Virus genome (UHGV): UHGV-1351772 | Strand: one strand, 5' to 3' | Length of the DNA: 64,000 bases | From: a virus | The notes under the pieces: generated by a model | Seen by the model: only the letters and a program-made list of their open reading frames with translations | Databases searched by the model: none | Told to the model about the DNA's origin: nothing | Shown here: positions 5,691-55,740 of the stretch, piece by piece | Layout of the letters: each line of letters begins with the position of its first letter | How positions within the stretch are numbered: the stretch's first letter is position 1 | Made by a program: the position numbers and the translations under genes

Positions 5691-5694
5691 TTAT

Positions 5695-5922: not shown

Positions 5923-6005
5923 TAGGGACTGTACCGGCAGTCCCTACTGCTTTATCTTCTCTTTCGAAAAGATAAAGCGCCTATGGGGAGTGTTGGCGCA
6001 CTCCC
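5923..6005 (-). repeat. three-hairpin RNA module, copy 2
   Basis: Same architecture as copy 1; middle hairpin gctttatc...gataaagc has the identical loop with compensatory stem change (aac/gtt to atc/gat). Confidence 0.55.
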
Positions 6006-9645: not shown

Positions 9646-10286
9646 TACAGAATTCCTCCACGTCTACGGTATATCTGTTCAATACGGTGCATAATCGTAT
9701 CGTTGAACTGATGCCGCTCTGTTTCCAATCGGACTTCGCCAAATAACGCTTGTACGGAAACCGCCATTGTTACTTCAGGTTTCTTAAAGTAACCGTAACG
9801 GTTCGCTACCGGGAACAGTTTACGCGCTAACGCATTAAACTGACGCAAGCCCTCCATAGGGACTTTACGTGTTGTCAGGTGTGGGGTCTGCATGTAATTT
9901 AGCCAATCGGCTAAGTGTTCCATGATATACCCGTACACGATAATCCCGTCATGTGGGTCGTGGACGTCTAACGCCGCGCCAGATTCTGCATAAACCGCAA
10001 CTTCGAAAGGTCGCATGTATACGGTCTTTTTATTGAGCAGTATCGCGCGTGCTTTTTTCTCGTCTTCCGGTAAGAACAACCCATGTTCCTGAGACATGTA
10101 CGTTGAAATCGTCGTCCATTCAGGGACACGCCACCCCACCCACTTGTGAAACAGCATAAATGCTGCGCTACGTTTTTCAGCCACGTTAATCCCTCGCATA
10201 CCGTAACAACAAATACACCATCGGAATATAGTAGAACTGCGCATCCTTCGGCAAACGGTAAACTTCTTCAAACAACCGTAATGCAA
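9645..10286 (-). CDS. hypothetical protein (true start possibly internal Met near 10199)
   Basis: 213-aa ORF; longest-ORF start overlaps upstream gene by about 100 nt. Confidence 0.45.
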   Translation of the reverse strand: MHYGCLKKFTVCRRMRSSTIFRWCICCYGMRGINVAEKRSAAFMLFHKWVGWRVPEWTTISTYMSQEHGLFLPEDEKKARAILLNKKTVYMRPFEVAVYAESGAALDVHDPHDGIIVYGYIMEHLADWLNYMQTPHLTTRKVPMEGLRQFNALARKLFPVANRYGYFKKPEVTMAVSVQALFGEVRLETERHQFNDTIMHRIEQIYRRRGGIL

Positions 10287-30485: not shown

Positions 30486-31805
30486 TTACGTAATGTGGAT
30501 CGATGGATTAAATTCGTGTACCACTGTCTCTTTACCGTGCATCGCGGCCATTGCCACGGACATAACGTTAGAGAACGCCGAGGATATATCCGCAGCGATT
30601 GCGCGAGGTTCTTCCCCTTTATTCGCAGACGAACACGCTGTGCAGGTGTCGATGTGGCCATACTGACATAAGATGGGTCGGCGTAACCGCACCACTTTAC
30701 CTAACTGCTGTTTTAAATATTCCTCAGTCAGTGGTGTCAGTTTACCATTAACCATCGCATTCATCCCAACGTAACGTTTTACGTTATCATCGGTAATCAC
30801 AACCGGATACGTTAGTTTCGTTCCACAGTCACCAGGGACGATTCGGTGGTTCTGGAAAATCATCTGGATAATACGTACCTGCTCACCCCCTTTCGCTGTT
30901 TCCGCACCACGAGAGAACGAACCTTCACGGATAGAGTTGAATTTCGCGACCAGGTTTTCCATCCCCGCCTTATCAACTTCAACTAATGCGTTCGGAATGA
31001 GCGTGTAATGGCCCCCTTCCTGAAAAGACGATTCAATACCGTACATCAGCATTAATTTACGTCGACGCATCCGCGATTTCGGCGAGTTATAAAACTCAAT
31101 AGATTGGTCACCCGACAACCACTCTTTATCTAACTCATCCAGCGCTTTTTCAATCTTAACGATAACGGCAGGATCGTCTAACTCGTCTTTGTGCTTCAAC
31201 AGTAACGCATCGCGGATTTTATACGCATCAGGATGCACCGTGAGGCTTCGTAACGTACCTGTTGGTGCAATACCTGACGTGAGCGGTGCGAGCTCGTGTA
31301 AGCCGCTTACAAAGCGCTCAATCATACTCGGTCGAATTGCACCTTCGTTTTCTGGCTCATCGGTTTCATGGTCTAAACAACGACGATGCATCTCTTTGCG
31401 ATATTCCAACGGGTTTTGTGAAATCGCCAGATAAGGTAAGCGTGTACCAAATGCATACCAGATAACAATCCAGTTAAAAACGTATCGTCCTACTGTCGTG
31501 GGAATAGGACCGTCTAAACCGGGATAATCGTCAGGGCGTAGCTCGAACTGTTCTTCAGGGACAAACAGCTCCTGGTCCTTTACACCGTCAGTAATCGGTT
31601 CCCAACTGCCCTTACCGTCTTCTACAGCGTAATAATGCGGTAAGCCGTCGATATACGTTATATCAAACACTTCGGGTTCTTCGCGCCCTGTTGGAAACAC
31701 CGACATGTTAAAAATAGCAATACGCCAAACCAATCGACGCCAAGCTTCTGCTTTACATGCCGCTACTAAGAACTCAAACCTCGTCATCGTGCTCTGCCTC
31801 CTCAA
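30486..31805 (-). CDS. hypothetical protein
   Basis: 439-aa ORF. Confidence 0.55.
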   Translation of the reverse strand: MRRQSTMTRFEFLVAACKAEAWRRLVWRIAIFNMSVFPTGREEPEVFDITYIDGLPHYYAVEDGKGSWEPITDGVKDQELFVPEEQFELRPDDYPGLDGPIPTTVGRYVFNWIVIWYAFGTRLPYLAISQNPLEYRKEMHRRCLDHETDEPENEGAIRPSMIERFVSGLHELAPLTSGIAPTGTLRSLTVHPDAYKIRDALLLKHKDELDDPAVIVKIEKALDELDKEWLSGDQSIEFYNSPKSRMRRRKLMLMYGIESSFQEGGHYTLIPNALVEVDKAGMENLVAKFNSIREGSFSRGAETAKGGEQVRIIQMIFQNHRIVPGDCGTKLTYPVVITDDNVKRYVGMNAMVNGKLTPLTEEYLKQQLGKVVRLRRPILCQYGHIDTCTACSSANKGEEPRAIAADISSAFSNVMSVAMAAMHGKETVVHEFNPSIHIT

Positions 31806-35725: not shown

Positions 35726-36109
35726 TTAACCGTTATCATGAGGAACGGTTACCCAACTGTGCCATTTCTCGGAGTATAACCGATAGGCCACTTTCGGGTT
35801 TTGGTCTACATTACCTGCGGGGTTTTCAGACCACAGAACCCAACTGTACAATTCATAAGACGAAGTATTACGAATACTGGAGTTACGTGTGATATAATAG
35901 CATTTACCACGTTGGAAAATCTGCATTCCTGCATAGTGTTCATTCACCATGTAATAGTGAAATGCGACACTCATTACAGGATCGGTACAGAGTCTATTTA
36001 CGACGTCTAAAACGTCGGGATACGCCTTTAAAACTTTTTCGAGAAAACTTGCTAAGTTCAGACCGGCATACGGCGCGGTTGGCTCTGTTGGCTGCGGCGG
36101 TAGTAACAT
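35726..36109 (-). CDS. hypothetical protein (start probably internal Met near 35974)
   Basis: 127-aa ORF; longest form overlaps helicase 3-prime end. Confidence 0.4.
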   Translation of the reverse strand: MLLPPQPTEPTAPYAGLNLASFLEKVLKAYPDVLDVVNRLCTDPVMSVAFHYYMVNEHYAGMQIFQRGKCYYITRNSSIRNTSSYELYSWVLWSENPAGNVDQNPKVAYRLYSEKWHSWVTVPHDNG

Positions 36110-37703
36110 CAGCTTTCCTTACAATATACGGTGAGGTGGCTATCTTAAACGACAACACAGAATCACTCAGTGATTTTTGACGCGCATTCAAGTAATTGCA
36201 ATGCTTCGGTATCGAATAAGAATGGAATAACCACACAACGGGATCGAGTTCACCCCAGTCGTTGTGGAGAATCTTACGTGGACGTCCGGCCATCTGGCGG
36301 TTTAACTGCTGGTCTTCCACAGGAGTAGTAATGTACATGTGCACCAGCCCCGGTTTGTCAACCGCAGTACCTGCTTTCCCTGGTGTTGAAATAGAGAAAT
36401 CCGCTTGAATAAAGTCGTCATACGAATCCCCTGCGTTATATTTCGCAACCATCAACGCATGGAACTTATCAGATTGTGCAAGCTTCTCTCGCACGTAATC
36501 CGTAAAGAACTCACACATTGCGACAGTTGCGAACAACACCAACACTTTCTGACCAGGTTGATAACCTGCCAGATACGTCCGTTCTATTACATCCCAGACC
36601 ATATCCGCGTACGACTGATGAAGGTTTTCGCTAATCAGCTTCCCTTCAAACAGTTTGTGGTTATACGGGGTCATCTTCGTTGCCCACCACGCAAACCGTT
36701 TATTCTCAATTCGGTAATACAACGCTTTCACATGTACCGCAGGAATAATCGGAATGGTGATACGTGCCTCTTGTGGGAAACGTTCTTTATACCGTTCTGC
36801 CAAGAACGCTTTCGATTCACCCGGTTGGAGTGTAGCCGACATCTCAACAGAGGGCGGCGGATTCAACATAATTCCAGCCATGTACACCAAGTGGAAATGT
36901 TCGTGCACTTCATCCATCGATAAGAACCCAACACCTAGCGTGTTATAGAAATCATCGATGTTCACTGGGTTAGTCGCAGCGGTGTTGATATATTCTTTCA
37001 AAAACCGCTGTAACGTCACTGTAGAGACGATAATAACTTTGATGCCACGTTTATCCAACTCACCACTTTCACCCATTTCTAGCGCTTCGTAGACCGCTTG
37101 TACGCCCTGTATAACCAAGACGTCCTCTTTCGATTCACGAAGTCCAGTAGGATCTTCCGTTAAGTCGAATAACCATTTAGAGATGTACGTGGGTCGATGA
37201 ATCAATAACGTTCTTACCCCTTTACGAACCATCACTTTCATGTTCGTCTTCGACTTACCCATCCCTGTACCAATCTCAAAGATGGTTTGTAAGCGGTTAG
37301 GCTGGCACGCCGTTTCTACAACGCCATTCTGATAAAAGAAGCGTGACGACTCATCTTCTTCTATCATGTTAAAGCCGTAGTTTTCAAACGTACAGCGGTA
37401 AGGTGTTCCCTGGGTTAAGTGATGCTCGTAGAGTTTAAAGTCAATTGCAAACTCAGCGGCCGTTCGGTTAATAATGATTCGTAAACGTTCGGAAAAATTC
37501 CGGTGGAATATAAAGGTACGGATAGAAGGAATATGTGCGTAATACGGATCGCCACGTTCGGTGATGATTCTTCCGTATTGTTTACCCATTTTCGGGGCGT
37601 GCATATTCTCTTCTGCCCACTTTAGGATTGCCGACTCTATAGGTCGACAAGGGACTTCGACCCTCACACCCATACTCGTAAAGGTCATGTGGAATTCGTA
37701 CAT
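35994..37703 (-). CDS. SF2 (DExH-type) helicase, putative
   Basis: Walker A GTGMGKSKT and DEVH box (FLSMDEVHEHFH) in correct order. Confidence 0.65.
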   Translation of the reverse strand: MYEFHMTFTSMGVRVEVPCRPIESAILKWAEENMHAPKMGKQYGRIITERGDPYYAHIPSIRTFIFHRNFSERLRIIINRTAAEFAIDFKLYEHHLTQGTPYRCTFENYGFNMIEEDESSRFFYQNGVVETACQPNRLQTIFEIGTGMGKSKTNMKVMVRKGVRTLLIHRPTYISKWLFDLTEDPTGLRESKEDVLVIQGVQAVYEALEMGESGELDKRGIKVIIVSTVTLQRFLKEYINTAATNPVNIDDFYNTLGVGFLSMDEVHEHFHLVYMAGIMLNPPPSVEMSATLQPGESKAFLAERYKERFPQEARITIPIIPAVHVKALYYRIENKRFAWWATKMTPYNHKLFEGKLISENLHQSYADMVWDVIERTYLAGYQPGQKVLVLFATVAMCEFFTDYVREKLAQSDKFHALMVAKYNAGDSYDDFIQADFSISTPGKAGTAVDKPGLVHMYITTPVEDQQLNRQMAGRPRKILHNDWGELDPVVWLFHSYSIPKHCNYLNARQKSLSDSVLSFKIATSPYIVRKADVTTAAANRANRAVCRSELSKFSRKSFKGVSRRFRRRK

Positions 37704-37745
37704 GCTCCCCTCTTACAAAAAAAGAGGGGCGCAGGCCCCTCTCGT

Positions 37746-39845
37746 TTACTCAATGATAGTCGCGGCCACCGTATTGTCGTATAACGACGCCGGACGTTTA
37801 CGTGACGTGTAGAAACGCACGTTGTCCAGGTTTTTCTGTTGGCCTTCGAATAACAACATCGGTACAGCTGAACGCATCGCAATCAACGTGTTGTGATCCT
37901 CGAAACGTTTGCCATCCATCACATCAGCATCTTCACTATCAAACCCAACCGCCGGGAAAGGATTGGTCGGTGATTCAACGCGTGATATCGCCAGCATAAT
38001 CGCGATGTGTGTCATCGGAATACCACCGAGCTTACGTTGGATATATTTAAACACATCAAATAACGCGTGCGTACATTGTTTCTCCGTAGCACCGCGCATC
38101 TGAACCAGTGTCGTTGGTTTTACCTTACCTGACTTCTTGCTCAAACGCATTGAGTCATCAGAGAACTGTTCGAAAGTATCCGATTTATCAGACGCAACCG
38201 AACGAAGTTTCAATTCTAACCCTGCTACAAACTCCGCCATAGATTCAGACCGATTCGTATAAATTAGTATCGGCCAACTCGGTTTCCATCCTTTCAGGGG
38301 AATCCGTACCAGCTTCTTCGACGGGAAGGTAATGTTATCGCGCTGTTTCAGGAAGAAATGTAAGAAGGCTTTCGAGAAGTTACCACAAACCCCCATACGG
38401 ACGTCAATGGGATCTTCGGCCAACACATTCCCAGCTTCATCCAACCGCAAAAAGGTCAGTTCGTTAATCTCCGGCAATGCCGTTTCGTCGATCACTTCCA
38501 AATCATCGTGATACGCGATTTGGCTGATTTCAGAATAGACTTCATCGGAAATAACGAGTTGGTATTCATCCCAATTACCGTACTGCGGTTTCTCCCGTAA
38601 ACTCAATCCTTTTACGGAGTTGTGTTTATACTCACCAAGATAATCCCGCATTCTTGGAGTCAGCACCAGATTCAGCAGATAGCGTAAGAAGTCCAGGTGT
38701 TTCGTTGAGAGAATCCCCTGTGTACCCTTTTCAGATATCGAGGTTGAGGCCAAGTGGCCTGGTGACGTTCCCGGCGAAAGGTTATAAATCAAATCACCCA
38801 TGCAGGTTGCACAAATGCTTTGACGCGCCATCCCCTTACAACACATCGCGGTACGAAACTCAATAGGTTTGCCTAAGACTTTCTCAAACTCCCCTTTCTC
38901 GAATCGTAACCACGGGCCACCCACACCTTCAAAACGATAACGCATTCCCACCATCGCATCGTACTTCTTACGCTCCAGTTTACTTTCTGTAAACGTGTGG
39001 CGATGAACGTGATGTGTACCACAATCGTCGTATTCGAAATACATTAACACGTTGGCTGCTAACTGTAGCTTACGTGACGCATATTCCGCATCGGCGATTT
39101 TATCGGTATTATACAGGTGAGTACGTGACGTCGCTCCCGCTTCTTTCAGACGGCTAATTACAGAATGTAGACCCGTAAAGAAACCTTCCCATACCTGGTT
39201 GGAATAAACGCGAGAATCAATCTCTGATGTTTTCCCACGTATATACGCCTGAAGAACCTGGTTCATTTTGATGGTCTTATCCAAGACCGACATCACCACA
39301 GGGTTTAAACGAAGTTGTGGGTCTTTGAAGATATCTTCGATAAGAAGATACGCTTCTTCGATCATATCCCGACCTTCTTCGTCGTACCCAGTAGGATACA
39401 TTTGTGCCCACTGATGAATCTGCGTAAAATTTCGGTGTTGGTAAATTTCCATCATCGTATCGTAGTCAATCGTGACGCAATACGACAACAGATTTTTCAC
39501 CGATAAGTTAAACGCATCCGCATAGACGTGCTGCTGCAATAAATAGCGGGTATCTGCTAAATCCACACCCGCTTTACGTGCTGCCACAGCTGCCAATGAC
39601 ATAAACTTCAGATGTGCGTCATCTGTAGCGGTGTCGCCATGTTTATACGCCATTTGCGAACTGATTGGGATCTGCGGATAAAATCGTGTTAGCCCCCAAT
39701 AAGGCCAACTGATTTTAATGTGGCGTCCTGACATGTTTAAGGTTATCCCGTCATCGAACGTCACTTCATATCTGCCGCGCAATAGCCACACCTGATCCGA
39801 GTTCAGTTTACACAGATCACGCACGTGAACTGGAGTGCCCTTCAT
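37746..39845 (-). CDS. multisubunit RNA polymerase beta-prime-like subunit, C-terminal portion
   Basis: CATCMGDL...ISEKGTQGILSTKHLD resembles bacterial beta-prime CAKCYGRDL...IGEPGTQLTMRTFHIG region; immediately downstream of and coupled to the beta-like gene. Confidence 0.6.
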   Translation of the reverse strand: MKGTPVHVRDLCKLNSDQVWLLRGRYEVTFDDGITLNMSGRHIKISWPYWGLTRFYPQIPISSQMAYKHGDTATDDAHLKFMSLAAVAARKAGVDLADTRYLLQQHVYADAFNLSVKNLLSYCVTIDYDTMMEIYQHRNFTQIHQWAQMYPTGYDEEGRDMIEEAYLLIEDIFKDPQLRLNPVVMSVLDKTIKMNQVLQAYIRGKTSEIDSRVYSNQVWEGFFTGLHSVISRLKEAGATSRTHLYNTDKIADAEYASRKLQLAANVLMYFEYDDCGTHHVHRHTFTESKLERKKYDAMVGMRYRFEGVGGPWLRFEKGEFEKVLGKPIEFRTAMCCKGMARQSICATCMGDLIYNLSPGTSPGHLASTSISEKGTQGILSTKHLDFLRYLLNLVLTPRMRDYLGEYKHNSVKGLSLREKPQYGNWDEYQLVISDEVYSEISQIAYHDDLEVIDETALPEINELTFLRLDEAGNVLAEDPIDVRMGVCGNFSKAFLHFFLKQRDNITFPSKKLVRIPLKGWKPSWPILIYTNRSESMAEFVAGLELKLRSVASDKSDTFEQFSDDSMRLSKKSGKVKPTTLVQMRGATEKQCTHALFDVFKYIQRKLGGIPMTHIAIMLAISRVESPTNPFPAVGFDSEDADVMDGKRFEDHNTLIAMRSAVPMLLFEGQQKNLDNVRFYTSRKRPASLYDNTVAATIIE

Positions 39846-42082
39846 TATTCATCGCCCCTTTTCATTTTCACCAATTCAAACCCTTCACAGCTGTGAATGT
39901 TTTTCATCATCCTGTCAATCTGTGAATCCCCTAACGGGAATTTATTTCGGTCTACCAGTGGACCCGGATTAGACGGGGTTTGAGATCGATAAAGCCCTAC
40001 TAAAATCTCACGATGCACCGCAGGGTTATTTGCCCTGTCGTGAACTTCTTCGTAGTTACCTGGACCATAACCCGCTAACAGTCGTTCTTCCGAAGGACCA
40101 GCCCATTTTAGCGTTTTATAGTTTATCGGATACGAACCGCGGCCTTGGTTAGACGCGTCTATCGTACCCAGATAATTCAGATACATTGACGAGATACTGG
40201 AAAACTCACGACCTGTTTTATCCAGACGTAATGTTTCCACACCACCTACGTAAAACTCATTTTTTGTCCATTCCTGTTTACCATCGAAATTAGTAATCAG
40301 GAGTTTGGATTTACGCGGTTTAAATTCACCCAACCGTTCACTGATATCGACTGGCGTGTCGTCAAGTTCATGTGGTAAGTAAATACGGATTGTAAAATCG
40401 TAAATCTCTTTGAAAAGTTCGCGTTGTAAATCCTCCGTAGGATGCGTTGCCTGTAGTGTATTGGCCCATTCTGGATTATAGCGTGATAGATAATCCATCA
40501 GGATTTCCCAGCTCTCGCTGATACGTCCTTCATCCAGCAATGGTTTGAGACGCATTTTCAACTGTTCAGACGCAGCTGACCAATACATGTGGAATAATGC
40601 TGCATAAGTCGAGCGACGAATTACAGCGTTCATCGAACGTAAAACGTGAACACGTTCACCGAATTCGTTAATCGGCATCTGTTCAACGGGTAATACACGT
40701 CCAACAATCCCTTTCGTACCCGAGCGGTCGGTAATCTTAGACGACACCGTTACCGGGATCGGATAACGAACAGCAATACGAATGGTATACGTGTTGATGG
40801 GATCGCTGAGTCCACGTTGTACTGGCGAGGTCAACTTAGAAAGAATCTGCTGACTGACATTTTCTTTACCGTATTCACCACGACGAATTGCTTCATCAAT
40901 CACCACGCGTATCTCTTCACGAAACTCGTGATAGACCTCGTACGTTTCAGAAGCGAACGCTTTTTCCAACAACACACACGCTTTCGGCGACCAGATAATA
41001 TTTTTGTCACGGGACATCGAGAAATAGAATCGTACGATGGCATTGTAATAGTCTTTCAATGCTAATGCGTATTTATCCAGTTCTCGTTTGTTCTCTTCGG
41101 TACAAGAAATATTGTTAGCACCATTCGCGCAAGACGTTTCATCACGCCACACCTGGATATCGACGATACGTGTACCGCTACGCTCCATCAGTTCTTTGTC
41201 GCCTGCAAGACGTGCTTTATAATGGACGGGATCGGCATCCACATATTCGCAACTATCAAAGAACGGAGAGACGTGTTGAGTTTCCCCAAGCGACGCATCA
41301 ATTGCACCGTAAAGCTCATCGAAACGACGCGATGCAATGACCAACCCATCGTCACGAATAGCCTCTCCTACATCCGGGAAATACCGTGGGACGCGATTAC
41401 CGTTCGGATCGATGTAACCGTAAGTATCCAGTAAAAACTCGTCTTCACGTAGCGTCTTTTCAACGATTTTCAAACCATAACCGTGGAGTTTTTGGGCGGC
41501 GTACTCAGAGATGGTGTAAGAATCCTCGATGATATCAGAATGCGAAATCGTAACGGTTGGTAGCACGACGCTATCGGCGTACTCGCCTTCCACCATACAC
41601 GACATCGTTGTAAGGATTTCATCCTTTTCCAACTGATCGGTTTCGCCACGTAAAATACTACGCAGTTTCATCGACTCACGTTTCTCAGATGAGAAGATGT
41701 TGTCGTGGTTAGTATAGAAGTTAATCTCTAGCACATCTATCATGGTTTTACCGCCCTTCATTTCTGCACGGCGGAAGAAGATAGCATGTTCTAACGCTTT
41801 AGAATCCCCACGACGACCATAACGTGTAAACGTCGCGCGGCGCTGACGACCGTCTTTGGTCATATAGTGGCAGATGCTACCGGGATCTTCTACAACGTCG
41901 TTGAACAGAAAATCGTGGTAGTTTATATCTGCCCCTGTAAAATGCGGCGATGGTTCAGGATTGTCGATAGGGACCGCAGACTTCATATGGTTGCCTACCA
42001 TCGATGCCCTTGCACCTGATACTTCGGTGATATTAATCTCACGGTCAGCCACACTGCTCATTAGCTCTACTGGCGTTTTCAT
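39845..42082 (-). CDS. multisubunit RNA polymerase beta-like subunit, C-terminal portion
   Basis: DRSGTKGIVG...MP matches beta GDK..GRHGNKGV...MP motif; PDVGEAIRDDGLVIA matches PNVGEAALSKLDESGIV. Confidence 0.8.
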   Translation of the reverse strand: MKTPVELMSSVADREINITEVSGARASMVGNHMKSAVPIDNPEPSPHFTGADINYHDFLFNDVVEDPGSICHYMTKDGRQRRATFTRYGRRGDSKALEHAIFFRRAEMKGGKTMIDVLEINFYTNHDNIFSSEKRESMKLRSILRGETDQLEKDEILTTMSCMVEGEYADSVVLPTVTISHSDIIEDSYTISEYAAQKLHGYGLKIVEKTLREDEFLLDTYGYIDPNGNRVPRYFPDVGEAIRDDGLVIASRRFDELYGAIDASLGETQHVSPFFDSCEYVDADPVHYKARLAGDKELMERSGTRIVDIQVWRDETSCANGANNISCTEENKRELDKYALALKDYYNAIVRFYFSMSRDKNIIWSPKACVLLEKAFASETYEVYHEFREEIRVVIDEAIRRGEYGKENVSQQILSKLTSPVQRGLSDPINTYTIRIAVRYPIPVTVSSKITDRSGTKGIVGRVLPVEQMPINEFGERVHVLRSMNAVIRRSTYAALFHMYWSAASEQLKMRLKPLLDEGRISESWEILMDYLSRYNPEWANTLQATHPTEDLQRELFKEIYDFTIRIYLPHELDDTPVDISERLGEFKPRKSKLLITNFDGKQEWTKNEFYVGGVETLRLDKTGREFSSISSMYLNYLGTIDASNQGRGSYPINYKTLKWAGPSEERLLAGYGPGNYEEVHDRANNPAVHREILVGLYRSQTPSNPGPLVDRNKFPLGDSQIDRMMKNIHSCEGFELVKMKRGDE

Positions 42083-42506: not shown

Positions 42507-43886
42507 TTAGCGCGTAAATGGCGAAGTTGCAAATCCACCGAAGCTGCTTTGCGGCTGTCCGCCAAAACTGCTATTCGTTGCAAATGCTGAACTCGTGCTA
42601 AACGCGCTAGTCCCTCCTACGTTCCCGCTAAAAGAATTATTCCCTCCGCCAAAGGTACTTGCCAAAGAACCTCCGGTATTCCCTACACCGAAGTTACTCT
42701 GACCACCGAAAGGTGACACCTTGCGCTCTCCACCAAACGCATCCACAACAGAAATTCGACTTACCATACCGTTGGCAGGGTTAGTTGTTCCGTGCTGCTC
42801 GGCGTAACGTTGCATCGCTGGCGTCAAATTCCCATAAGGACTATGCGTGGCCATGTTACGTTCACGTGCGCGGAAGAATTCCATCGGATCGGACTTATCT
42901 GCTTTATCTGCATCCGATGCACGTTTTTGTGGAATCTGCTGTGGTGCCTGTGCACGATCAATACGGAAATCATGCGCCGTGGTATCACGTTCAGGGCTGT
43001 CAGAACGTGGGCCGGTGTTATACGGTAAGGTCTGAATGACGTTATCGTAAATATCCATATTGTCCAGCTGAGAAATCCATTCATCTTCCAACGGACGTAA
43101 AGAAGTGTGGTCGCGCAATCCCTTAACGACGTTGTTATAGTTCACAACGTACTGCGCCCAACCACGCGCTAAGCAACCGAAATACGGACGCGAATCATTA
43201 GACCCCGTTACGCTCGGATACCAACCGAACACGGTGGTCAATAAACGATGGATAATGATTTTGTCTTGTTTACGTTGAAGCTTCGCAGAGAAGTACATTG
43301 CAGTACCATCTAACGATTCTTCTTCGAACATATTCCGATAATTAGCTACACGGTTAAACTTCACGCCGTCGATAACTAAATCAGACGCAATAAAAAGCTG
43401 GGTGATCTTGTGCTTTTTATCTTTTTCCAATTGTGCATAAACGAACGCCTTAACCGCTTCCCAGGATTTTACCAAACGTTCATCGAACGTCGGATCTTTC
43501 ATCCCTTCGCAAATCTGTTCTGTTAAGAATTTCTTGTAGGATGCAGAACGTACTGCTTTACCACTTGCCCCCGTTTCCAGAATCGCGTCGATTAATGCAA
43601 AGGAACGAATGAACAGGTTCGCATTAATGGATTTCTTCAGGAAACGAATTGTACCTGATTCACCTGCCAGTACCGATTCACACAGCGGATGAAATGCCTG
43701 ACATTCACGACCATCGTCGTCTTCCATGCCACGCTTAATCATCGCTGGGGTGGGAAGCGCCAAACGGCGCTTCACTTTGTTATACGTAAACTCTGCCGGT
43801 TCACCACCGTCACGAGTGAGTAAATCGTTTTCAAAATCGAATCCTTGTGATTTAAGAAACGATTTGTAGAATTCAATAATTTTCAT
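42507..43886 (-). CDS. hypothetical protein with C-terminal FG(G)-repeat low-complexity tail
   Basis: 459 aa; C-terminal ~70 aa contain AFGG, PFGG, NFG, TFGG, SFGG, SFGGF repeats in a Gly/Ser/Asn-rich context. Confidence 0.55.
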   Translation of the reverse strand: MKIIEFYKSFLKSQGFDFENDLLTRDGGEPAEFTYNKVKRRLALPTPAMIKRGMEDDDGRECQAFHPLCESVLAGESGTIRFLKKSINANLFIRSFALIDAILETGASGKAVRSASYKKFLTEQICEGMKDPTFDERLVKSWEAVKAFVYAQLEKDKKHKITQLFIASDLVIDGVKFNRVANYRNMFEEESLDGTAMYFSAKLQRKQDKIIIHRLLTTVFGWYPSVTGSNDSRPYFGCLARGWAQYVVNYNNVVKGLRDHTSLRPLEDEWISQLDNMDIYDNVIQTLPYNTGPRSDSPERDTTAHDFRIDRAQAPQQIPQKRASDADKADKSDPMEFFRARERNMATHSPYGNLTPAMQRYAEQHGTTNPANGMVSRISVVDAFGGERKVSPFGGQSNFGVGNTGGSLASTFGGGNNSFSGNVGGTSAFSTSSAFATNSSFGGQPQSSFGGFATSPFTR

Positions 43887-43908: not shown

Positions 43909-45615
43909 TTACTCGCCGAATGCACCAAAACCAGACACTGGCGCAGGAGTTGACATATCGCTGCCGCCAAAGCTACCGAAGCTACCCAGGCTCGTAGGTG
44001 CAGACACAGGGGCAGTTGGAATATTCGACAGGATATTCGAACGGTTCTGACCACGGTTGAATTCTTGGTACCCTTCTTCCACTTTATTCATCAGCTGCGC
44101 TGTTTCTGCAGCTAACTGGTTCGTGTACTGAAGGTCAGTTGTTGTACCACAATGCAGACGTGCTTTCATGAACGACGCATGAGTATAATACTCAGGCAGC
44201 TCACCATCGATTTCAATTTCAATACGTGAAACCACCCCGACGATACATGTTACGGTCATCTTACAACGAATACGGTTGTGTTTAGTCACTTGCAAGAATA
44301 CGCCTTGTAAGTCACTTAAGAAGCGACGCGCTAACACATCCGGTAATCCGTCTTCAGTTAATGCCCCAACGTTGTGTTTTGACACTTGCAGCAGAGGAGG
44401 TGTTGCAATATCCGCCATACGGTTATCGTAGAAGAAAGTCACTTCACCGATAAGGTTACGAGTGACCACAGGCCCCAGTAACATGGCTAAATCAAATGCC
44501 ACCAACGAACCCTGAGTAGAATAGTTATTACGTCCTACCCAATCATCGGTGCGTTCAATTTCACCAAAACCACGACGAGCCGCGACAGCCAGCGAGTGCG
44601 CAATTGCAGCGTCCACGTCTTCGGGATTAATCACCGCATTACGCAAGTCGCACAGTTTGAATGCTGCACGGTTCGCAACGTTCCAACCGCTAGTCATATC
44701 GGACGTGGCGTTGGATATGGCTGTTCTAAAAGCCTTCACCAACTCGTAACTGTTGAAATTACGCATCACACCGATCTGGCTAAGTTCAGATTCTACCCCA
44801 AGAGAATGATCTCCTGCGAAGAAACTGTCTACTGCGCTCAACTCCGTTTCAATCCCCATGGTATTAATGAAGGAATTGGAGATCGCTGTCACGAAAGATT
44901 CTGGTCGGGTTAATTGACTAGACATCAACTGTGGCGCACGCTGGCAATTAGCGGAGATAACGGTGTTGTTATCCAGCTCAATCTGCTCACCAGCTTTCAC
45001 CACTTTACGTACCATATCAGCTGCTTTCGCGGTAGAAATAACGTCAATGGTGTGCTCTACATAGCTGTCTGCGGTTAATGTCTTGGACAACACATAGTTG
45101 TCTATCAAACGGAAGGAATCCGGGTTGATACGACGTCCACCGAACGCATCAGTGATATACGTACATTGTAACCCGTATATTTCGTTGATATACAGAACCA
45201 TGTCGTCCGGCAGGTGATTAAACATGGATCGCTCTGCCTGGGACGTATACCCGGAAACAACATAACGCGTTTCCTGAGTCCGTGTGTCGTTTAACGAGTT
45301 CGAAACAATAATCGCCACGAAGTTATACACACCAGTATCGCGAGAATTATACGCAAATTGGATTGGTTGCGATTCGTTATCACTCACGTTAATGAATGGA
45401 CGTTCAATGCCTGTTGGGGTATTGTCGAAACCCACAATCTGCCCCAGGGCTTCTTGATAAGCCCGAGAACCTGTTGCTTTATCACCGTGTTCTGCAACCA
45501 CATCCACTAACTCATCCAAAGCGTGCTGCGATTCAAAGAACCCAATACGACGACGAATCTGCTCTGGGATTTCGTACACTGGATACATTTGTAGTTTCAA
45601 AAGTTTCATTGCCAT
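43909..45615 (-). CDS. hypothetical protein with C-terminal FG-repeat tail
   Basis: 568 aa; C-terminus ...SLGSFGSFGGSDMSTPAPVSGFGAFGE. Confidence 0.55.
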   Translation of the reverse strand: MAMKLLKLQMYPVYEIPEQIRRRIGFFESQHALDELVDVVAEHGDKATGSRAYQEALGQIVGFDNTPTGIERPFINVSDNESQPIQFAYNSRDTGVYNFVAIIVSNSLNDTRTQETRYVVSGYTSQAERSMFNHLPDDMVLYINEIYGLQCTYITDAFGGRRINPDSFRLIDNYVLSKTLTADSYVEHTIDVISTAKAADMVRKVVKAGEQIELDNNTVISANCQRAPQLMSSQLTRPESFVTAISNSFINTMGIETELSAVDSFFAGDHSLGVESELSQIGVMRNFNSYELVKAFRTAISNATSDMTSGWNVANRAAFKLCDLRNAVINPEDVDAAIAHSLAVAARRGFGEIERTDDWVGRNNYSTQGSLVAFDLAMLLGPVVTRNLIGEVTFFYDNRMADIATPPLLQVSKHNVGALTEDGLPDVLARRFLSDLQGVFLQVTKHNRIRCKMTVTCIVGVVSRIEIEIDGELPEYYTHASFMKARLHCGTTTDLQYTNQLAAETAQLMNKVEEGYQEFNRGQNRSNILSNIPTAPVSAPTSLGSFGSFGGSDMSTPAPVSGFGAFGE

Positions 45616-45645: not shown

Positions 45646-47358
45646 TTATTGATTAAACCATGCTACTTCTTCGCATTTCTTTCTGTTTTGAATTAACAGA
45701 AATTCTGCTAACATGTTCTGAAGTCGCGGATGAGGTGAATAGTCCAACATCACTGTCCCACACCGTAACATTCTGGCTGCTTCCGGTGTTGCCCTGAGAT
45801 TGAAGTTGAACGGTGCAATATGTTCACGAACCAACAAGCTGAGAGAATCCTTCAATGTTGATTGTTCGTAAGTATTACGATGCTTACGGTATGCTTGTGG
45901 ATAATATCTATCCGTTTTTATTTTAATCTCATTATCGATTGGCTCGATAGGATACCCGCCATTTAGCGGTGCCCGGATCATTTCACAACTTAACAACTGT
46001 GCAATCTCAGGCATTCCGTAATAGATGTAAACGGCTTGGGATATACCCATCGCGTTCTTAAACGCTTCTGCGTCGATTTCCTTGTATGTACGACGATCTG
46101 CAAATCGGTGCATCACTGCCGCCACCAACCATTCGTAGAGTTCGTAGAAAGGATATTGATGGTTAATGTTGATGGAATCTATCAACACTTTCACATCAGC
46201 GGGAGCAATATCGAGATTCAAAGCACGCACCGCACGACGATAGTCATTAAAGAATTCTTGAGTACGAACGAATTCCTTCATTGGTGCTTTAGTCCGAGCT
46301 TGAACCAGGTCAATCGACGAAGTTTTCCCCTTCTCGCCGTTGAACATGATTTTCTCAGGATTCGCTTTTAGCATCACGTTTTGACCGGAAATTTTTCCCG
46401 CGAAGCCCGTTTCAATTTCTTGCCGAATATTGAAATACATCCCCGCCACGATGTTGTTTTCAACCATCGTACCTGGTGGTAGTTCGGCACCGATTAACTT
46501 CATCGCAATTAAACGGATAACGGCGAACGCTATGATGTATTCCTCTACCATATCCGTACCGTAGCCGCAGATAGATGCCAGGACGGTAAGGTTTGCAGTA
46601 TTAGGTCCTTTACTCCCCCCGTCCTGAACTTTCGAAATCACCGACACTAAAAACTCACGCAACTTTGTAATGGCTGGCAGTGTAGCAATCTCGGTATCAG
46701 ACAACAGTTCCATGCAGTAGGTCAGGTTATAAACACTTTTGCGCTTCGACTCAACAGAAGCACGTGTTGCAGGAAAAGCGTCCAAAATCAAGAATACGGG
46801 AATAAACGGTTTTGTCATCAAAGACAAAATCACCAATTCGTAATAATCTTGTACGATATACGTCATCTCTTTTGGATAATTCGACGACATCTCTTCGTAC
46901 GTTTCGTGGACGTTTTGAGGAATCCACACCGAACCGTGTGGATAAAGCTGGCGGAATCTATCTGCGTGATGAAATTTAGCAATTCTCGCGACGAGCGTGG
47001 GGACGTGTTCACGAATAACTTCTGGGGGTTCATTAGCTAACAACTCTAATTCTTCGTAAACTGAAAACAGTTCGCTTTTCTCTTCAGGTGTTAAAGTTGA
47101 CCAATAACGCTCGATTTCCATGAACATGATTTTATCGTGCGTTACGATCTGTCCGAAACTATCGCGTACGTCTGGCACATTCACGTCTTTACGTCCATTT
47201 CGGAAACCATTAAACGCGACCTCTTTTTCGCCGTACTTTATCACTAAACGGTCACGATTCTTTTCAATGCGCATTTTAAAATCTCCAGGAATAACATAGT
47301 CGTCCACTAAGATAAAATCTATCTCAGATAACTTCGACTGTATTCTACACACATACAC
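45646..47358 (-). CDS. hypothetical protein
   Basis: 570-aa ORF. Confidence 0.55.
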   Translation of the reverse strand: MYVCRIQSKLSEIDFILVDDYVIPGDFKMRIEKNRDRLVIKYGEKEVAFNGFRNGRKDVNVPDVRDSFGQIVTHDKIMFMEIERYWSTLTPEEKSELFSVYEELELLANEPPEVIREHVPTLVARIAKFHHADRFRQLYPHGSVWIPQNVHETYEEMSSNYPKEMTYIVQDYYELVILSLMTKPFIPVFLILDAFPATRASVESKRKSVYNLTYCMELLSDTEIATLPAITKLREFLVSVISKVQDGGSKGPNTANLTVLASICGYGTDMVEEYIIAFAVIRLIAMKLIGAELPPGTMVENNIVAGMYFNIRQEIETGFAGKISGQNVMLKANPEKIMFNGEKGKTSSIDLVQARTKAPMKEFVRTQEFFNDYRRAVRALNLDIAPADVKVLIDSININHQYPFYELYEWLVAAVMHRFADRRTYKEIDAEAFKNAMGISQAVYIYYGMPEIAQLLSCEMIRAPLNGGYPIEPIDNEIKIKTDRYYPQAYRKHRNTYEQSTLKDSLSLLVREHIAPFNFNLRATPEAARMLRCGTVMLDYSPHPRLQNMLAEFLLIQNRKKCEEVAWFNQ

Positions 47359-51801: not shown

Positions 51802-53759
51802 TTACCCCGCCAATTTTAATAATTCCGAGTCAAGCGCGATACCGGCTTCCAAGTCCTCTTCAGTATCCTGGAAGAAACTGTTTATGTTGCTGATATTCTC
51901 GTTATGGAGAATCATGCAACTCGAAACCTCGTCCACATTCGTGCTTGACATAAACCCGTTGTCTGGGCGATAAGCCATGCCCAGTTCCATTTCAATCTGG
52001 TCGATTGCCAATCTACATTGTAACTGGTCGCCATCGAAATCCTGTTTGTCCACTCCATTCCTTTTGGAGCAGGTGTGCAATGACACCCTCCCATGCTTTC
52101 ACATGGGCACAGACTATATCATAACCGTAGGTATTGCTACCCGTAGGTCTCCCCCACTTCGCCGCTAAACTAAGCAGCTACTCTACTCGGTTTTACCCTT
52201 TCGATAGTCGTTGAACGATTTTCATCGCTGCTGGTTATCCATTATCACAACCCTTAGCATTATTGGTTAGCATAGGTTATCTTACGAATTGTTTCTGACT
52301 TTCGCCACCCTGTCGGGATCGTAAGCTTTAGGGGTTTCCAGCAATTCGAGGGATACGCACTAGAGGTTTCCCGTCTAGTGGGCCAGTGTTTAGCATTAGG
52401 TGCTTTGATGACGCGATCAGAAATACGCAGAGAACATTGTGTTACATCTGTCAGTACCGCTGAGATGAACAATGTCTGAATAGAAAGTTGAACCAATGTT
52501 GGGTTACGCAGAACTTCCAACATTAAGCCGAATCCGCCGGGGGATTCTTTAATCAACTCATTAATAATTTCATGTACCAACGGTACATACTGCATTGCCG
52601 CAAATGCAATGATGCGCTCACATTGTCGAGGTGTATAATCACGTCGACCTAACTTGTTCTCAATGTGAACACTCGCCAACGGAACCAACCAACGCCAAGG
52701 CGCAATAACTTTCAACGCATCATGAGGTTCAGAGATAGGAGAGATAGTCACACGTCCGCCCCACGGTACGTGTGTTGACCCGAGTTTTGCCCGATAGAAC
52801 CCAGGTTTACCTTCCATCACTTCCTGACGATGGTCAATATAGAAATACGCAAGCTGTCGATTCGCTTTGATCGCACGACGAATAATAAATCGTGGTTCGA
52901 TACGGCGTGCATTCGTGTACAACAACGCCACATTTTTTACTGCGTCGATAGCGCTGGTATAAACCGGATCGATAAAAATACCTTGTCGGCGCTCCTCCGT
53001 AACGATCAGTTTTGATGAAATAATCGGAAGGTGTCTTGGAAAGAATGAGAACGATTGTTCCTGAAAGAACTCACGCCATTCTAAGCGCACGCGCTCACTC
53101 TCATAACGGTTATTTTTCGTTGGTGGATAAATCTCCTTCCAAGCTTCCGGAGACGTAAGGATATTAAAGACGGTTCGATGGTGGTCGATAAAGTTTCGAA
53201 TTCCCCGTTCGAAGCCATGTTCGCCGAGTATTCTTTTCACCACGCGAGCACGTGTTCCCTCGTCCTTTTCTGGATGGTAGTACGGATCGATTAGCCACAG
53301 CAGTAAATCAGACCCGCGTTCTACCGTCACTTTGTTACGATTAAATTTTTTCAGCTTAGAGCCAAAGAAGGCATTAAAGAGAGACCAAAAACGTGGATTG
53401 ATAAAGTTACCCATCTCATCGGGAGCGCGTAACCAGACATCAGACGTAATCCGATGTTCAGAAACAACATGTCCGCAATGTGGGCAACGAAGCCCAAGAT
53501 TATAACGATGGGTAATAGGTGATTCGCAGGTCAGACTGCAAATAGGAGCCGAGTTGAGTGTTTCATCAACGATTCGGTTTTGGAGTATTTGGTTAATCAT
53601 CTCCGACGCTTCGATGGTATCCATCGTTGCAGCAACGTCATTGATAATAATCGGTGGTTTGTAGCCTTTTTCCTCCGCTTCTTGTATACAGTCACGTAAC
53701 ATCTTGTCGTGACTAATTAGTCGCCCCGAAATCCCGTAATATTCTAGTTTATGTTCCAC
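51802..53759 (-). CDS. multisubunit RNA polymerase beta-prime-like subunit, N-terminal portion with catalytic DFDGD; interrupted by a group I intron (exon 1 about 52446..53759, exon 2 about 51802..52087)
   Basis: Exon 1 has zinc ribbon CSLTCESPITHRYNLGLRCPHCG, GKPGFYRAKLG...GGRVTISP (cf. [20 protein letters not shown]) and LRNPTLVQLSIQ (cf. [12 protein letters not shown]); exon 2 has LHTCSKRNGVDKQDFDGDQL (cf. [18 protein letters not shown]); ORF-track splits this into two ORFs and reads through the intron. Confidence 0.75.
52088..52446 (-). other. group I self-splicing intron (ORF-less), boundaries approximate within about 10 nt
   Basis: On the gene strand, in order: P-like gaattgctggaaac (52331..52350), Q-like aaccagcagcg (52226..52236), R-like gttcaacgactat (52204..52216), S-like gatatagtctg (52110..52120), then a P9-like hairpin cccatg-tgaaag-catggg; P3 (ctgg/ccag) and P7 (gacta/tagtc) pairings possible. 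Confidence 0.7.
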
Positions 53760-53789
53760 GCCGAATCCTCAACAAAAAAAGAGAGGGAA

Positions 53790-53814
53790 GGGACAGGGGG
53801 TTTTCCCCTGTCCC
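53790..53814 (-). terminator. rho-independent terminator after 53844..55691
   Basis: gggacagggg-gtttt-cccctgtccc hairpin followed by T-run on minus strand. Confidence 0.6.
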
Positions 53815-53843
53815 TCAACTACTGCTTACTACTTACCAACTTA

Positions 53844-55691: not shown

Positions 55692-55740
55692 TTTACTTAA
55701 TCCTTATAAGGTTTAATACAATTGTAGTGTTGGTTCACGT

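What the first reader, a model, noticed from the sequence alone, without database searches (positions are those of the whole stretch)
37746..42082. Phage-encoded multisubunit RNA polymerase split into separate genes (beta C-terminal and beta-prime C-terminal here, beta-prime N-terminal at 51802..53759)
The beta GDK...RHGNKGV-type motif (DRSGTKGIVG), the beta-prime CxxCxG...GEPGTQ-like region and the beta-prime zinc ribbon plus DFDGD are each recognisable but lie on separate polypeptides. This is the hallmark architecture of the virion and non-virion RNA polymerases of phiKZ-like jumbo phages. Which of the two polymerase sets these pieces belong to cannot be told from this window.
Basis: partly seen in the sequence, partly recalled or inferred. 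Interest (0 to 1): 0.55.

Follow-up and report, generated by a model that had tools for sequence, protein, structure and literature searches.

The report
Jumbo-phage non-virion RNA polymerase genes
These are ordinary subunit genes of the split, non-virion RNA polymerase of an SPN3US/phiKZ-type nucleus-forming jumbo phage; the one extra is that the gene for the catalytic piece is interrupted by a self-splicing group I intron just before its active-site codons.

Summary
39845..42082(-) encodes a 745-aa RNA polymerase beta C-terminal piece. 37746..39845(-) encodes a 699-aa beta-prime C-terminal piece. 51802..53759(-) encodes the beta-prime N-terminal piece.

Two points in the finding need correcting.

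1. The polymerase set can be told: all three pieces belong to the non-virion polymerase (nvRNAP). The window is gene-for-gene collinear with SPN3US gp13-gp76. The three proteins match the solved phiKZ nvRNAP chains gp71-73, gp74 and gp55 (E 2e-29 to 1e-38). They score 3 bits or less, or nothing, against the phiKZ virion paralogues tested.

2. The beta-prime N gene is not one ORF. It is exon 1 (53759..52392), a 350-nt ORF-less group I intron (52391..52042; Rfam 56.9 bits) and exon 2 (52041..51802). Splicing restores KAPNA|DFDGD.

The window also holds:
- the sigma-like fifth nvRNAP subunit, a phiKZ gp68 homologue (45646..47358);
- one virion-polymerase piece, a gp80/gp42 homologue (30489..31787).

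The nvRNAP beta N-terminal gene is expected, by synteny, about 0.3 kb beyond the left edge.

The phage is an undescribed Seoulvirus-like chimallivirus, 70-77% amino-acid identical to SPN3US and Asesino. The architecture is well known, so interest is low.

The parts
39845..42082 (-). nvRNAP beta C-terminal subunit, 745 aa. It carries the beta double-psi beta-barrel: E186-D187 and lysines K449/K457 in KITDRSGTKG. Orthologue of SPN3US gp34 and phiKZ gp71-73.
   Evidence: PHROG 3295 E 1e-250. Pfam Rpb2_6 24.6 bits, above GA 23.4. PDB 7ogp_C phiKZ gp71-73 E 2.4e-29, and bacterial beta chains E 2e-5 over residues 430-514. 70.4% identity to SPN3US gp34.
37746..39845 (-). nvRNAP beta-prime C-terminal subunit, 699 aa. 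It carries the bridge-helix to trigger-loop region, four invariant Cys (C275, C336, C345, C348) and trigger-loop H383. Orthologue of SPN3US gp35 and phiKZ gp74. Its ATG shares one base with the beta-C stop (TAATG).
   Evidence: PHROG 3015 E 8e-223. PDB 7ogp_D gp74 E 1e-31, full length. Family profile to E. coli beta-prime 689-942 at E 7e-13 and to other beta-prime chains down to 6e-18. 74.8% identity to SPN3US gp35. Overlap shown.
52392..53759 (-). nvRNAP beta-prime N-terminal subunit, exon 1 (456 codons, GTG start). It holds the zinc ribbon C74/C78/C92/C95 and ends ...RVIKAPNA.
   Evidence: PHROG 2987 E 6e-141, profile positions 1-417 of 478. tblastn with SPN3US gp23 aa 6-456 ends exactly at 52392.
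52042..52391 (-). Group I self-splicing intron, 350 nt, with no ORF. The 5' splice site follows U 52392 and the last intron base is G 52042.
   Evidence: Rfam RF00028 56.9 bits, above GA 50, E 8.6e-12. Intronless alleles in SPN3US and p98232 define the junction. RNAalifold gives 79 pairs, 18 with compensatory changes. The P1 guide sequence covaries with the exon codon.
51802..52041 (-). nvRNAP beta-prime N-terminal subunit, exon 2 (79 codons plus stop). It starts with the catalytic DFDGD.
   Evidence: PHROG 2987 positions 412-477. The spliced 535-aa product aligns without gaps, at 81% identity, to the intronless 535-aa homologue. It aligns to phiKZ gp55 across KAPNADFDGDQL.
45646..47358 (-). 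Fifth, sigma-like nvRNAP subunit (phiKZ gp68 / SPN3US gp30 homologue). The likely real start is ATG 47274, behind a GGAG, which gives 542 aa.
   Evidence: PDB 7ogp_B PHIKZ068 E 4.4e-10, residues 70-481 vs 34-433. Local phmmer 42 bits. 52.9% identity to SPN3US gp30. Start codon context.
30489..31787 (-). A subunit of the OTHER polymerase: virion RNAP beta-prime middle piece (SPN3US gp42 / phiKZ gp80 homologue), 433 aa.
   Evidence: PHROG 2962 E 6e-169. 148.7 bits to phiKZ gp80 vs 1.4 bits to gp74. 74.1% identity to SPN3US gp42, which was found in virions by mass spectrometry (PMC5105663).
37722..37743 (-). Terminator-like GC-rich hairpin followed by a T-run, directly after the beta-prime C stop codon. 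Likely the end of the beta-C/beta-prime-C transcription unit.
   Evidence: 9-bp stem with 6 GC pairs, then TTTTTTTG. This is a pattern match only; total terminator-like counts do not exceed the shuffles.

Best explanation
The two genes at 37746..42082 and the split gene at 51802..53759 encode three of the five subunits of the non-virion RNA polymerase (nvRNAP) of a Seoulvirus-like, phiKZ-related jumbo phage.

What each piece supplies:
- Beta-C (745 aa) supplies one catalytic double-psi beta-barrel, with E186/D187 and lysines K449/K457.
- Beta-prime-N (535 aa after splicing) supplies the other barrel, with the Mg-binding DFDGD, plus the clamp zinc ribbon.
- Beta-prime-C (699 aa) supplies the bridge helix, the zinc site and the trigger loop.
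- The sigma-like gp68 homologue is encoded 3.5 kb upstream.
- The beta-N piece is expected just beyond the left window edge.

By analogy with phiKZ, these five assemble into an alpha/omega-less, rifampicin-insensitive enzyme that transcribes middle and late phage genes. The genes themselves would be transcribed early by the injected virion polymerase; one subunit of that enzyme, the gp42/gp80 homologue, is also in the window.

Beta-C and beta-prime-C are probably co-transcribed and translationally coupled (TAATG overlap, terminator-like hairpin after beta-prime-C).

The beta-prime-N mRNA must first lose a 350-nt group I intron. Unspliced, the ORF stops 43 codons into the intron and lacks DFDGD, so it would be catalytically dead.

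Shown here: homology, orthology, motifs, intron family membership and the exact exon junction. Inferred: assembly, timing, absence from the virion and actual splicing.
For: Homology to RNA polymerase:
- Pfam Rpb2_6 above its cut-off.
- PHROG RNA-polymerase families at E 1e-141 to 1e-250.
- The beta-C piece matches bacterial beta chains at E 2e-5.
- A 58-member profile of the beta-prime-C family matches cellular beta-prime at E 1e-13 to 6e-18 over E. coli residues 689-942. Four Cys and the trigger-loop His are invariant.

Assignment to the non-virion enzyme:
- Best PDB hits are the phiKZ nvRNAP chains: gp71-73 at 2.4e-29, gp74 at 1.1e-31 and gp55/56.1 at 1.5e-38.
- In a local phmmer matrix, beta-prime-N and beta-prime-C score 136 and 113 bits to the non-virion paralogues, against 0.4 and 3 bits to the virion ones. 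Beta-C scores 56 and 32 bits to gp73/gp71 and gets no hit to virion gp178.
- The window is collinear with SPN3US gp13-gp76, so these are the orthologues of gp23, gp34 and gp35.
- PMC5105663 calls gp35 the nvRNAP beta-prime and gp77 the nvRNAP beta-N. The virion enzyme is gp241/218/240/42/244 by mass spectrometry.
- The gene order is the same as phiKZ gp50...gp68, gp70, gp71-74, gp75, gp80.
- A gp68 homologue is present at E 4.4e-10.
- SPN3US gp77 matches phiKZ gp123 at E 3e-20. A gp77 homologue sits in an 80%-identical relative at the distance that places it about 0.3 kb off the window.

Intron. In addition, a Pfam Rpb1_2 hit (19.8 bits, residues 418-465) appears only in the spliced product and spans the junction.
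Against: - Nothing in the sequence shows that these proteins are absent from the virion. That rests on orthology to SPN3US and phiKZ proteomics.
- Pfam scores for both beta-prime pieces are below the gathering cut-offs (15.8 and 19.8 bits).
- The beta-N subunit is not in the window.
- ONT-cappable-seq did not detect splicing of the analogous predicted phiKZ introns under the conditions tested (PMC10914365). In-vivo splicing here therefore remains an inference, even though the solved phiKZ gp55 protein contains the joined sequence.
Confidence: 0.93

Rival explanations
1. The three pieces belong to the virion-packaged RNA polymerase (vRNAP), the enzyme injected with the DNA to transcribe early genes.
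For: Both polymerases share the split beta/beta-prime architecture. A genuine vRNAP subunit gene lies only 6 kb away, at 30489..31787.
Against: - Beta-prime-N and beta-prime-C score 0.4 and 3 bits against phiKZ gp180 and gp80, versus 136 and 113 bits against gp55 and gp74. Beta-C gets no hit to gp178, versus 56/32 bits to gp73/gp71.
- tblastn finds a single place per phage genome, always the non-virion locus.
- Beta-prime-C is one 699-aa protein containing the region that the virion enzyme splits between gp42 and gp244 (PMC5105663).
- A gp68-like subunit sits in the cluster.
Confidence: 0.02
2. The beta-prime N gene is really two genes, a further split of the polymerase into a 499-aa and a 94-aa polypeptide as GenBank annotates phage EC001. 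Alternatively it is a disrupted pseudogene. In either case there is no spliced gene.
For: ORF callers find two ORFs, 52260..53759 and 51802..52086. EC001, JN03 and SaP7 are deposited with two CDSs or a truncated CDS. phiKZ intron splicing was not seen by ONT-cappable-seq (PMC10914365).
Against: - The insert matches the group I intron model above Rfam's curated threshold.
- 18 base pairs show compensatory changes between lineages.
- It starts after a U and ends in G.
- Its guide sequence covaries with the exon codon: GCU with GGC, GGU with GCC.
- Removing exactly 350 nt gives a 535-aa protein that is collinear without gaps with intronless homologues.
- A two-polypeptide split would cut inside the invariant NADFDGD loop.
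- The 15 residues that the exon-2 ORF borrows from the intron are not conserved in EC001.
Confidence: 0.04
3. The region is part of a large plasmid rather than a phage, because the closest DNA matches are records labelled 'plasmid'.
For: 80.6% nucleotide identity over all 4337 nt to a 221,873-bp E. coli 'plasmid' and a 222,441-bp Enterobacter ludwigii 'plasmid'.
Against: - The window encodes a phiKZ-type major head protein, internal head proteins and virion structural proteins, and is collinear with SPN3US.
- PLSDB types the record as non-mobilizable.
- Seoul-like virulent jumbo phages persisting in isolate assemblies are already described (bioRxiv 10.1101/2024.12.31.630880).
Confidence: 0.01

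Closest known systems
Salmonella phage SPN3US nvRNAP genes gp23 (beta-prime N), gp34 (beta C), gp35 (beta-prime C), gp30 and gp77 (Seoulvirus, Chimalliviridae)
   Same: Same gene order, orientation and sizes: 745 vs 745 aa, 699 vs 701 aa, 535 vs 531 aa. The one-base stop/start overlap of beta-C and beta-prime-C is the same. Amino-acid identity is 70%, 75% and about 68%.
   Different: Megablast finds no match for 37746..42082 in the phage collection, and only about 71% identity for the beta-prime-N region. SPN3US gp23 has no intron and reads NGDFDGD rather than NADFDGD. Relatives of the window's phage have genomes of about 222-226 kb, against 240 kb.
phiKZ non-virion RNA polymerase (gp55, gp68, gp71-73, gp74, gp123; PDB 7OGP, 7OGR, 8QUE)
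   Same: Full-length homology of every piece, including the sigma-like gp68. Same catalytic motifs: DFDGD, two lysines in the beta barrel, trigger-loop His. Same local gene order.
   Different: Only 20-27% identity. phiKZ carries an intron in beta-C (gp72), where this phage has none. The phiKZ beta-prime-N intron is 1372 nt, carries an ORF (gp56), and by the U(-1)/terminal-G rule sits 3 nt upstream of the site used here.
Bacillus phage AR9 nvRNAP (PDB 7S00/7S01)
   Same: Split beta/beta-prime homologues detectable by sequence: E 2.7e-14, 3.3e-4 and 6e-7.
   Different: Much more distant. AR9 recognises uracil-containing template-strand promoters and lacks the zinc-binding domain (PMC7618050), whereas the cysteines are conserved here.
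Cyanobacterial split beta-prime (rpoC1/rpoC2)
   Same: The beta-prime split falls after the double-psi beta-barrel (PMC7598289). The beta-prime-C family profile matches cyanobacterial beta-prime chains near their N-terminus, residues 126-341.
   Different: Cellular enzymes keep beta unsplit and need alpha and omega.
Mobile group I introns in chimallivirus RNA polymerase genes (phiKZ gp56/gp72/gp179 loci; the PhiPA3 intron endonuclease of Birkholz et al. 2024, cited in PMC12908238)
   Same: A group I intron inserted at active-site codons of an essential polymerase subunit. A homologous intron in Salmonella phage SaP7 carries an HNH + NUMOD1 endonuclease ORF in its P1 loop.
   Different: The copy in this window has no ORF, so it cannot home by itself.

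Membership tests
Multisubunit RNA polymerase beta subunit | Profile match to the beta catalytic domain (Pfam RNA_pol_Rpb2_6) above the curated threshold, with the ED pair and two lysines of the double-psi beta-barrel | tested here: met
   Rpb2_6 24.6 bits vs cut-off 23.4. Bacterial beta chains at E 2e-5. E186/D187 and K449/K457 present. The lysines align with the K386/K394 stretch of phiKZ gp71-73 (PMC7618050).
Multisubunit RNA polymerase beta-prime subunit | NADFDGD Mg-binding loop; N-terminal zinc ribbon; bridge helix/trigger loop region with a four-Cys zinc site; profile match to cellular beta-prime | tested here: met
   NADFDGD is restored by splicing. Pfam Rpb1_2 and Rpb1_5 are only sub-threshold at 19.8 and 15.8 bits. 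However, the family profile hits cellular beta-prime at E 1e-13 to 6e-18, with invariant C275/C336/C345/C348 and H383.
phiKZ-type non-virion RNA polymerase (nvRNAP) | Orthology to the non-virion rather than the virion paralogues | tested here: met
   Score matrix. PDB best hits. Synteny with SPN3US gp23/34/35 and phiKZ gp55/71-74.
phiKZ-type non-virion RNA polymerase (nvRNAP) | A fifth, sigma-like promoter-recognition subunit (gp68 family) | tested here: met
   45646..47358(-) matches 7ogp_B PHIKZ068 at E 4.4e-10 and scores 42 bits in local phmmer.
phiKZ-type non-virion RNA polymerase (nvRNAP) | Four beta/beta-prime pieces, including beta-N (gp123/gp77 family) | tested here: inconclusive
   Three of the four are in the window. 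The window ends inside the gp76 homologue. Beta-N is found at the expected distance in an 80%-identical relative. SPN3US gp77 matches phiKZ gp123 at E 3e-20.
phiKZ-type non-virion RNA polymerase (nvRNAP) | Not packaged in virions; transcribes middle/late genes; rifampicin-insensitive; no alpha or omega | not testable with these tools
   Needs proteomics and biochemistry. Inferred from SPN3US and phiKZ (PMC5105663, PMC7618050).
phiKZ-type virion RNA polymerase (vRNAP) | Orthology to phiKZ gp178/gp180/gp80/gp149/gp176 (SPN3US gp241/240/42/218/244) | tested here: not met
   Beta-prime-N and beta-prime-C score 0.4 and 3 bits to gp180 and gp80. Beta-C has no hit to gp178. gp149 was not in the test set. 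Only the separate gene 30489..31787 meets this feature (148.7 bits to gp80).
Group I intron (Rfam RF00028) | Covariance-model score above the gathering threshold; U before the 5' splice site and terminal G; P1 guide pairing; removal restores the reading frame; conserved base-paired core | tested here: met
   56.9 bits vs 50. U52392 and G52042. P1 of 4-5 bp, with the guide covarying with the exon codon. Gapless 535-aa product. 18 compensatory pairs.
Group I intron (Rfam RF00028) | Self-splicing activity | not testable with these tools
   Requires in-vitro transcription/splicing or cDNA sequencing.
Mobile (homing) intron | Intron-encoded homing endonuclease | tested here: not met
   There is no ORF inside the 350 nt. 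The homologous SaP7 intron (1404 nt) has an HNH_3 + 3x NUMOD1 ORF.

The most novel reading that the evidence does not exclude
The ORF-less intron placed directly before the DFDGD codons may be functional rather than inert. By splitting the target sequence it could make this phage immune to the HNH homing endonuclease carried by the intron+ORF allele of co-infecting Seoulvirus relatives (SaP7 type). Splicing could also act as a checkpoint on production of the catalytic nvRNAP subunit. The co-variation of the intron guide sequence with the Ala/Gly codon shows that the intron has been kept splicing-competent while the exon changed.
Probability: 0.15. Interest if true: 0.45.

Novelty: new member of a known kind. 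Interest (0 to 1): 0.2.

Why it matters
As a polymerase, it adds one more divergent set of nvRNAP subunit sequences to a family whose architecture, structure and function are already established for phiKZ, AR9 and SPN3US. This set is 70-77% identical to SPN3US and Asesino and comes from the 'Seoul-like' lineage that persists in enterobacterial isolates.

Its practical value lies in annotation.
- These proteins are deposited as 'hypothetical protein' in E. coli, Salmonella and Shigella assemblies.
- The intron-split beta-prime-N gene is mis-annotated in several phage genomes (EC001, JN03, SaP7) as two genes or as a truncated gene.

The three allelic states at one site (no intron, ORF-less intron, intron with HNH endonuclease) offer a natural system for studying intron-endonuclease competition in nucleus-forming phages of enterobacteria.

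Tried and rejected
- Megablast of 37746..42082 against the phage collection gave no hit, so identification had to go through proteins.
- Pfam alone is weak for both beta-prime pieces, which score below the cut-offs. This was resolved with a family profile searched against PDB.
- In the search for the fifth subunit among neighbours, the ORFs 35994..37703, 42507..43886 and 43909..45615 gave no PDB match. The first is a helicase by PHROG 16. Only 45646..47358 matched gp68.
- The sigma-70 promoter scan found fewer sites than shuffles (23 vs 32) and is irrelevant for a phage that uses its own polymerases. Terminator counts are not enriched overall.
- An exact-pattern scan of viral contigs for the 3' splice junction returned only one locus, a near-identical relative. 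Covariation therefore rests on two lineages plus SaP7.
- tblastn with phiKZ gp54 (chimallin) did not hit the window at E 1e-3. The chimallin label for 53844..55691 therefore rests on position and 50% identity to SPN3US gp22 only.
- Rejected readings: virion polymerase, a further gene split or pseudogene, and plasmid (see rivals).

Full report
**Observation.** One is 39845..42082(-), 745 aa; the other is 37746..39845(-), 699 aa. Both lie on the minus strand, like nearly all genes of this 46% GC window. The quoted motifs are there.
- The 745-aa protein has IEDSY (E186/D187) and KITDRSGTKGIVG (K449, K457).
- The 699-aa protein has CCKG...CATCMG (C336, C345, C348) and SEKGTQGILSTKH (H383).
- The third gene has a four-cysteine ribbon (C74, C78, C92, C95) and DFDGD.

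The beta-C stop and the beta-prime-C start share one base (TAATG).

**Are they RNA polymerase pieces?** Yes.
- PHROG profiles annotated as RNA polymerase subunits hit at E 1e-250, 8e-223 and 6e-141.
- Pfam Rpb2_6 is above its curated cut-off for the 745-aa protein (24.6 vs 23.4 bits). Rpb1_5 is only sub-threshold for the 699-aa protein.
- Against all PDB sequences, the 745-aa protein matches phiKZ gp71-73 (7ogp_C, 2.4e-29), AR9 nvRNAP and about 30 bacterial beta chains (E 2e-5 over residues 430-514).
- The 699-aa protein matches phiKZ gp74 over its full length (1.1e-31).
- An exhaustive HMMER search found 809 representative relatives of the 699-aa protein. A 58-sequence alignment of them has invariant R258, C275, C336, C345, C348, G350 and H383.
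- The profile of that alignment hits cellular beta-prime at E 1e-13 to 6e-18. The match covers E. coli beta-prime 689-942, that is bridge helix through trigger loop, and H383 aligns to the His of MRTFH.

**Which polymerase?** tblastn against 50,697 phage genomes shows that the nearest relatives are Erwinia phage Asesino (76.7%) and the Seoulvirus group (SPN3US, about 70-75%). There is one matching place per genome. The window is gene-for-gene collinear with SPN3US gp13 to gp76. The three genes are therefore the orthologues of gp34, gp35 and gp23.

Thomas et al. 2016 (PMC5105663) name gp35 the nvRNAP beta-prime and gp77 the nvRNAP beta-N. By virion mass spectrometry they showed that the virion enzyme consists of gp241, gp218, gp240, gp42 and gp244.

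I then extracted phiKZ paralogues of both enzymes and ran a phmmer matrix.

| Window protein | Non-virion paralogue | Virion paralogue |
|---|---|---|
| beta-prime-N | gp55: 135.9 bits | gp180: 0.4 bits |
| beta-prime-C | gp74: 113.1 bits | gp80: 3.0 bits |
| beta-C | gp73/gp71: 56.5/32.4 bits | gp178: no hit |

The assignment to the non-virion enzyme is unambiguous.

**What else of the polymerases is in the window?**
- ORF 45646..47358(-) is the SPN3US gp30 orthologue. Its likely start is ATG 47274 behind a GGAG. It matches phiKZ gp68, the sigma-like promoter-recognition subunit (7ogp_B, E 4.4e-10; 42 bits). Four of the five nvRNAP subunits are thus encoded in the window.
- The fifth, beta-N, is not. 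The window ends within the gp76 homologue (8..646). SPN3US gp77 matches phiKZ gp123 (3e-20). In an 80%-identical relative the gp77 homologue lies 38.0 kb from beta-prime-C, which corresponds to about 0.3 kb beyond the left window edge.
- Gene 30489..31787(-) is a virion-polymerase piece. It hits PHROG 2962 at E 6e-169, is 74% identical to SPN3US gp42, and scores 148.7 bits to phiKZ gp80 against 1.4 bits to gp74.

The local order is the same as in phiKZ: DNA polymerase..., beta-prime-N..., SbcD..., gp68-like, gp69, gp70, beta-C, beta-prime-C, helicase..., virion beta-prime-M. A strong terminator-like hairpin follows beta-prime-C directly (37743..37722).

**The intron.** 51802..53759 is not one ORF. 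A 499-aa ORF ends at 52260, and DFDGD lies in another frame within a 94-aa ORF. Several lines of evidence show a group I intron.
- Rfam finds a group I intron at 52090..52407(-), 56.9 bits against a gathering score of 50. It is the only Rfam hit in the window.
- Alignment with intronless SPN3US gp23 fixes the boundaries. Exon 1 ends ...CCT AAT GCT (U 52392), the intron is 52391..52042 (350 nt, last base G), and exon 2 starts GAT TTC GAT GGC GAC.
- The spliced 535-aa product aligns without a single gap, at 81% identity, to the uninterrupted 535-aa homologue on E. coli 'plasmid' p98232.
- It aligns to phiKZ gp55 across KAPNADFDGDQL (1.5e-38).
- A Pfam Rpb1_2 match spanning residues 418-465 appears only after splicing.
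- Homologous ORF-less introns of 356 nt sit at the same site in the Seoulvirus phages EC001 and JN03. The spacing of the split tblastn matches suggests the same in SPLA3, SPLA5c, 1252 and Lh1B. EC001 is deposited with two CDSs and JN03 with a truncated one.
- RNAalifold on the two lineages gives 79 pairs, 18 of them with compensatory double changes.
- The P1 guide covaries with the exon codon: exon GCU pairs with GGC here, and exon GGU pairs with GCC in Seoulvirus.
- In Salmonella phage SaP7 the same ribozyme is 73% identical over 344 nt. It carries about 1.05 kb in the P1 loop encoding an HNH_3 + NUMOD1 x3 endonuclease.

The locus therefore exists in three states: intronless, ORF-less intron, and intron with endonuclease.

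phiKZ also has a group I intron in this gene (Rfam 75.6 bits). It is 1372 nt and contains gp56. By the U(-1)/terminal-G rule it sits 3 nt upstream, between the Asn and Ala codons. It shares only short collinear core motifs with the intron here.

**Mechanism (inferred from the phiKZ and SPN3US literature).** The injected virion polymerase transcribes these genes early. The beta-prime-N transcript self-splices. The five subunits assemble into an alpha/omega-less enzyme in which beta-prime-N and beta-C contribute the two double-psi beta-barrels and the gp68-like protein occupies the sigma position. That enzyme transcribes middle and late genes (PMC7618050, PMC7598289, PMC5105663). Without splicing, the exon-1 ORF terminates 43 codons into the intron and lacks the Mg-binding aspartates.

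**Provenance and novelty.**
- The exact 745- and 699-aa sequences are on record only from a Logan assembly (ERR975218, a 52-kb contig).
- Their 90%-identity clusters are full of 'hypothetical proteins' from Salmonella, E. coli and Shigella isolate assemblies, on contigs of 222-226 kb.
- Two complete 'plasmids' of about 222 kb are 80.6% identical at the nucleotide level.
- A 220.8-kb IMG/VR contig carries a 98%-identical intron.
- Such 'Seoul-like' virulent jumbo phages persisting in isolates are already described (bioRxiv 10.1101/2024.12.31.630880).
- The split two-polymerase architecture, the solved nvRNAP structure and introns in chimallivirus polymerase genes are all established (PMC7598289, PMC7618050, PMC12908238).

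This is therefore a new member of a known kind. The finding is correct and ordinary. The intron and its allelic series are a modest bonus.

Noticed in passing
window 52042..52391 (-): A 350-nt ORF-less group I intron splits the beta-prime N gene between the Ala codon and DFDGD. Its P1 guide sequence covaries with the exon codon (GCU/GGC here, GGU/GCC in Seoulvirus).
   Followed up: yes
L002 (EC001) 1293..3244; L003 (JN03); L005 (SaP7) 3157..5985: Public phage genomes carry the same intron unannotated. EC001 is deposited with two CDSs, JN03 with a truncated CDS, and SaP7 with two CDSs flanking a 'hypothetical protein' that is an HNH + NUMOD1 homing endonuclease sitting in the intron's P1 loop. 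SPN3US, Asesino and p98232 are intronless.
   Followed up: yes
L004 (phiKZ) 9169..10540: The phiKZ gp55/gp56/gp56.1 intron lies in the same active-site codon block. By the U(-1)/terminal-G rule it sits 3 nt upstream of the site used in this window, and it shares only short core motifs with this intron. This suggests a separate or very old insertion.
   Followed up: partly
window 30489..31787 (-): A virion-RNA-polymerase subunit gene (beta-prime middle piece, SPN3US gp42 / phiKZ gp80 homologue) lies 6 kb from the non-virion genes. Both polymerases are therefore represented in the window.
   Followed up: yes
window 45646..47358 (-): Homologue of phiKZ gp68, the sigma-like fifth nvRNAP subunit. 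The mechanical ORF start (GTG 47358) is probably wrong; ATG 47274, preceded by GGAG, fits the SPN3US gp30 alignment better.
   Followed up: partly
whole window; L006 (NZ_CP173450.1), NZ_CP134650.1, L007, L011: The phage lineage has no close cultured representative in the phage collection. It is abundant as 222-226-kb contigs or 'plasmids' with all-hypothetical annotation in Salmonella, E. coli, Shigella and Enterobacter isolate genomes. This matches the 'persistent Seoul-like jumbo phages' of a 2025 preprint.
   Followed up: partly
window 53844..55691 (-) and 53751..55700 (+): The 615-aa gene just upstream of beta-prime N is the SPN3US gp22 orthologue (50% identity). It occupies the position of phiKZ gp54 (chimallin), but phiKZ gp54 gave no tblastn hit. 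A 649-aa antisense ORF over it looks like a shadow ORF. A 12-bp GC-rich hairpin (53816..53788) separates it from beta-prime N.
   Followed up: partly
window 14967..16229 and 16312..17583 (-): Two adjacent paralogous internal head protein genes (PHROG 2497). The major head protein is at 828..3122, the DnaB-like helicase at 3673..5235 and the DNA polymerase at 57194..59506.
   Followed up: no
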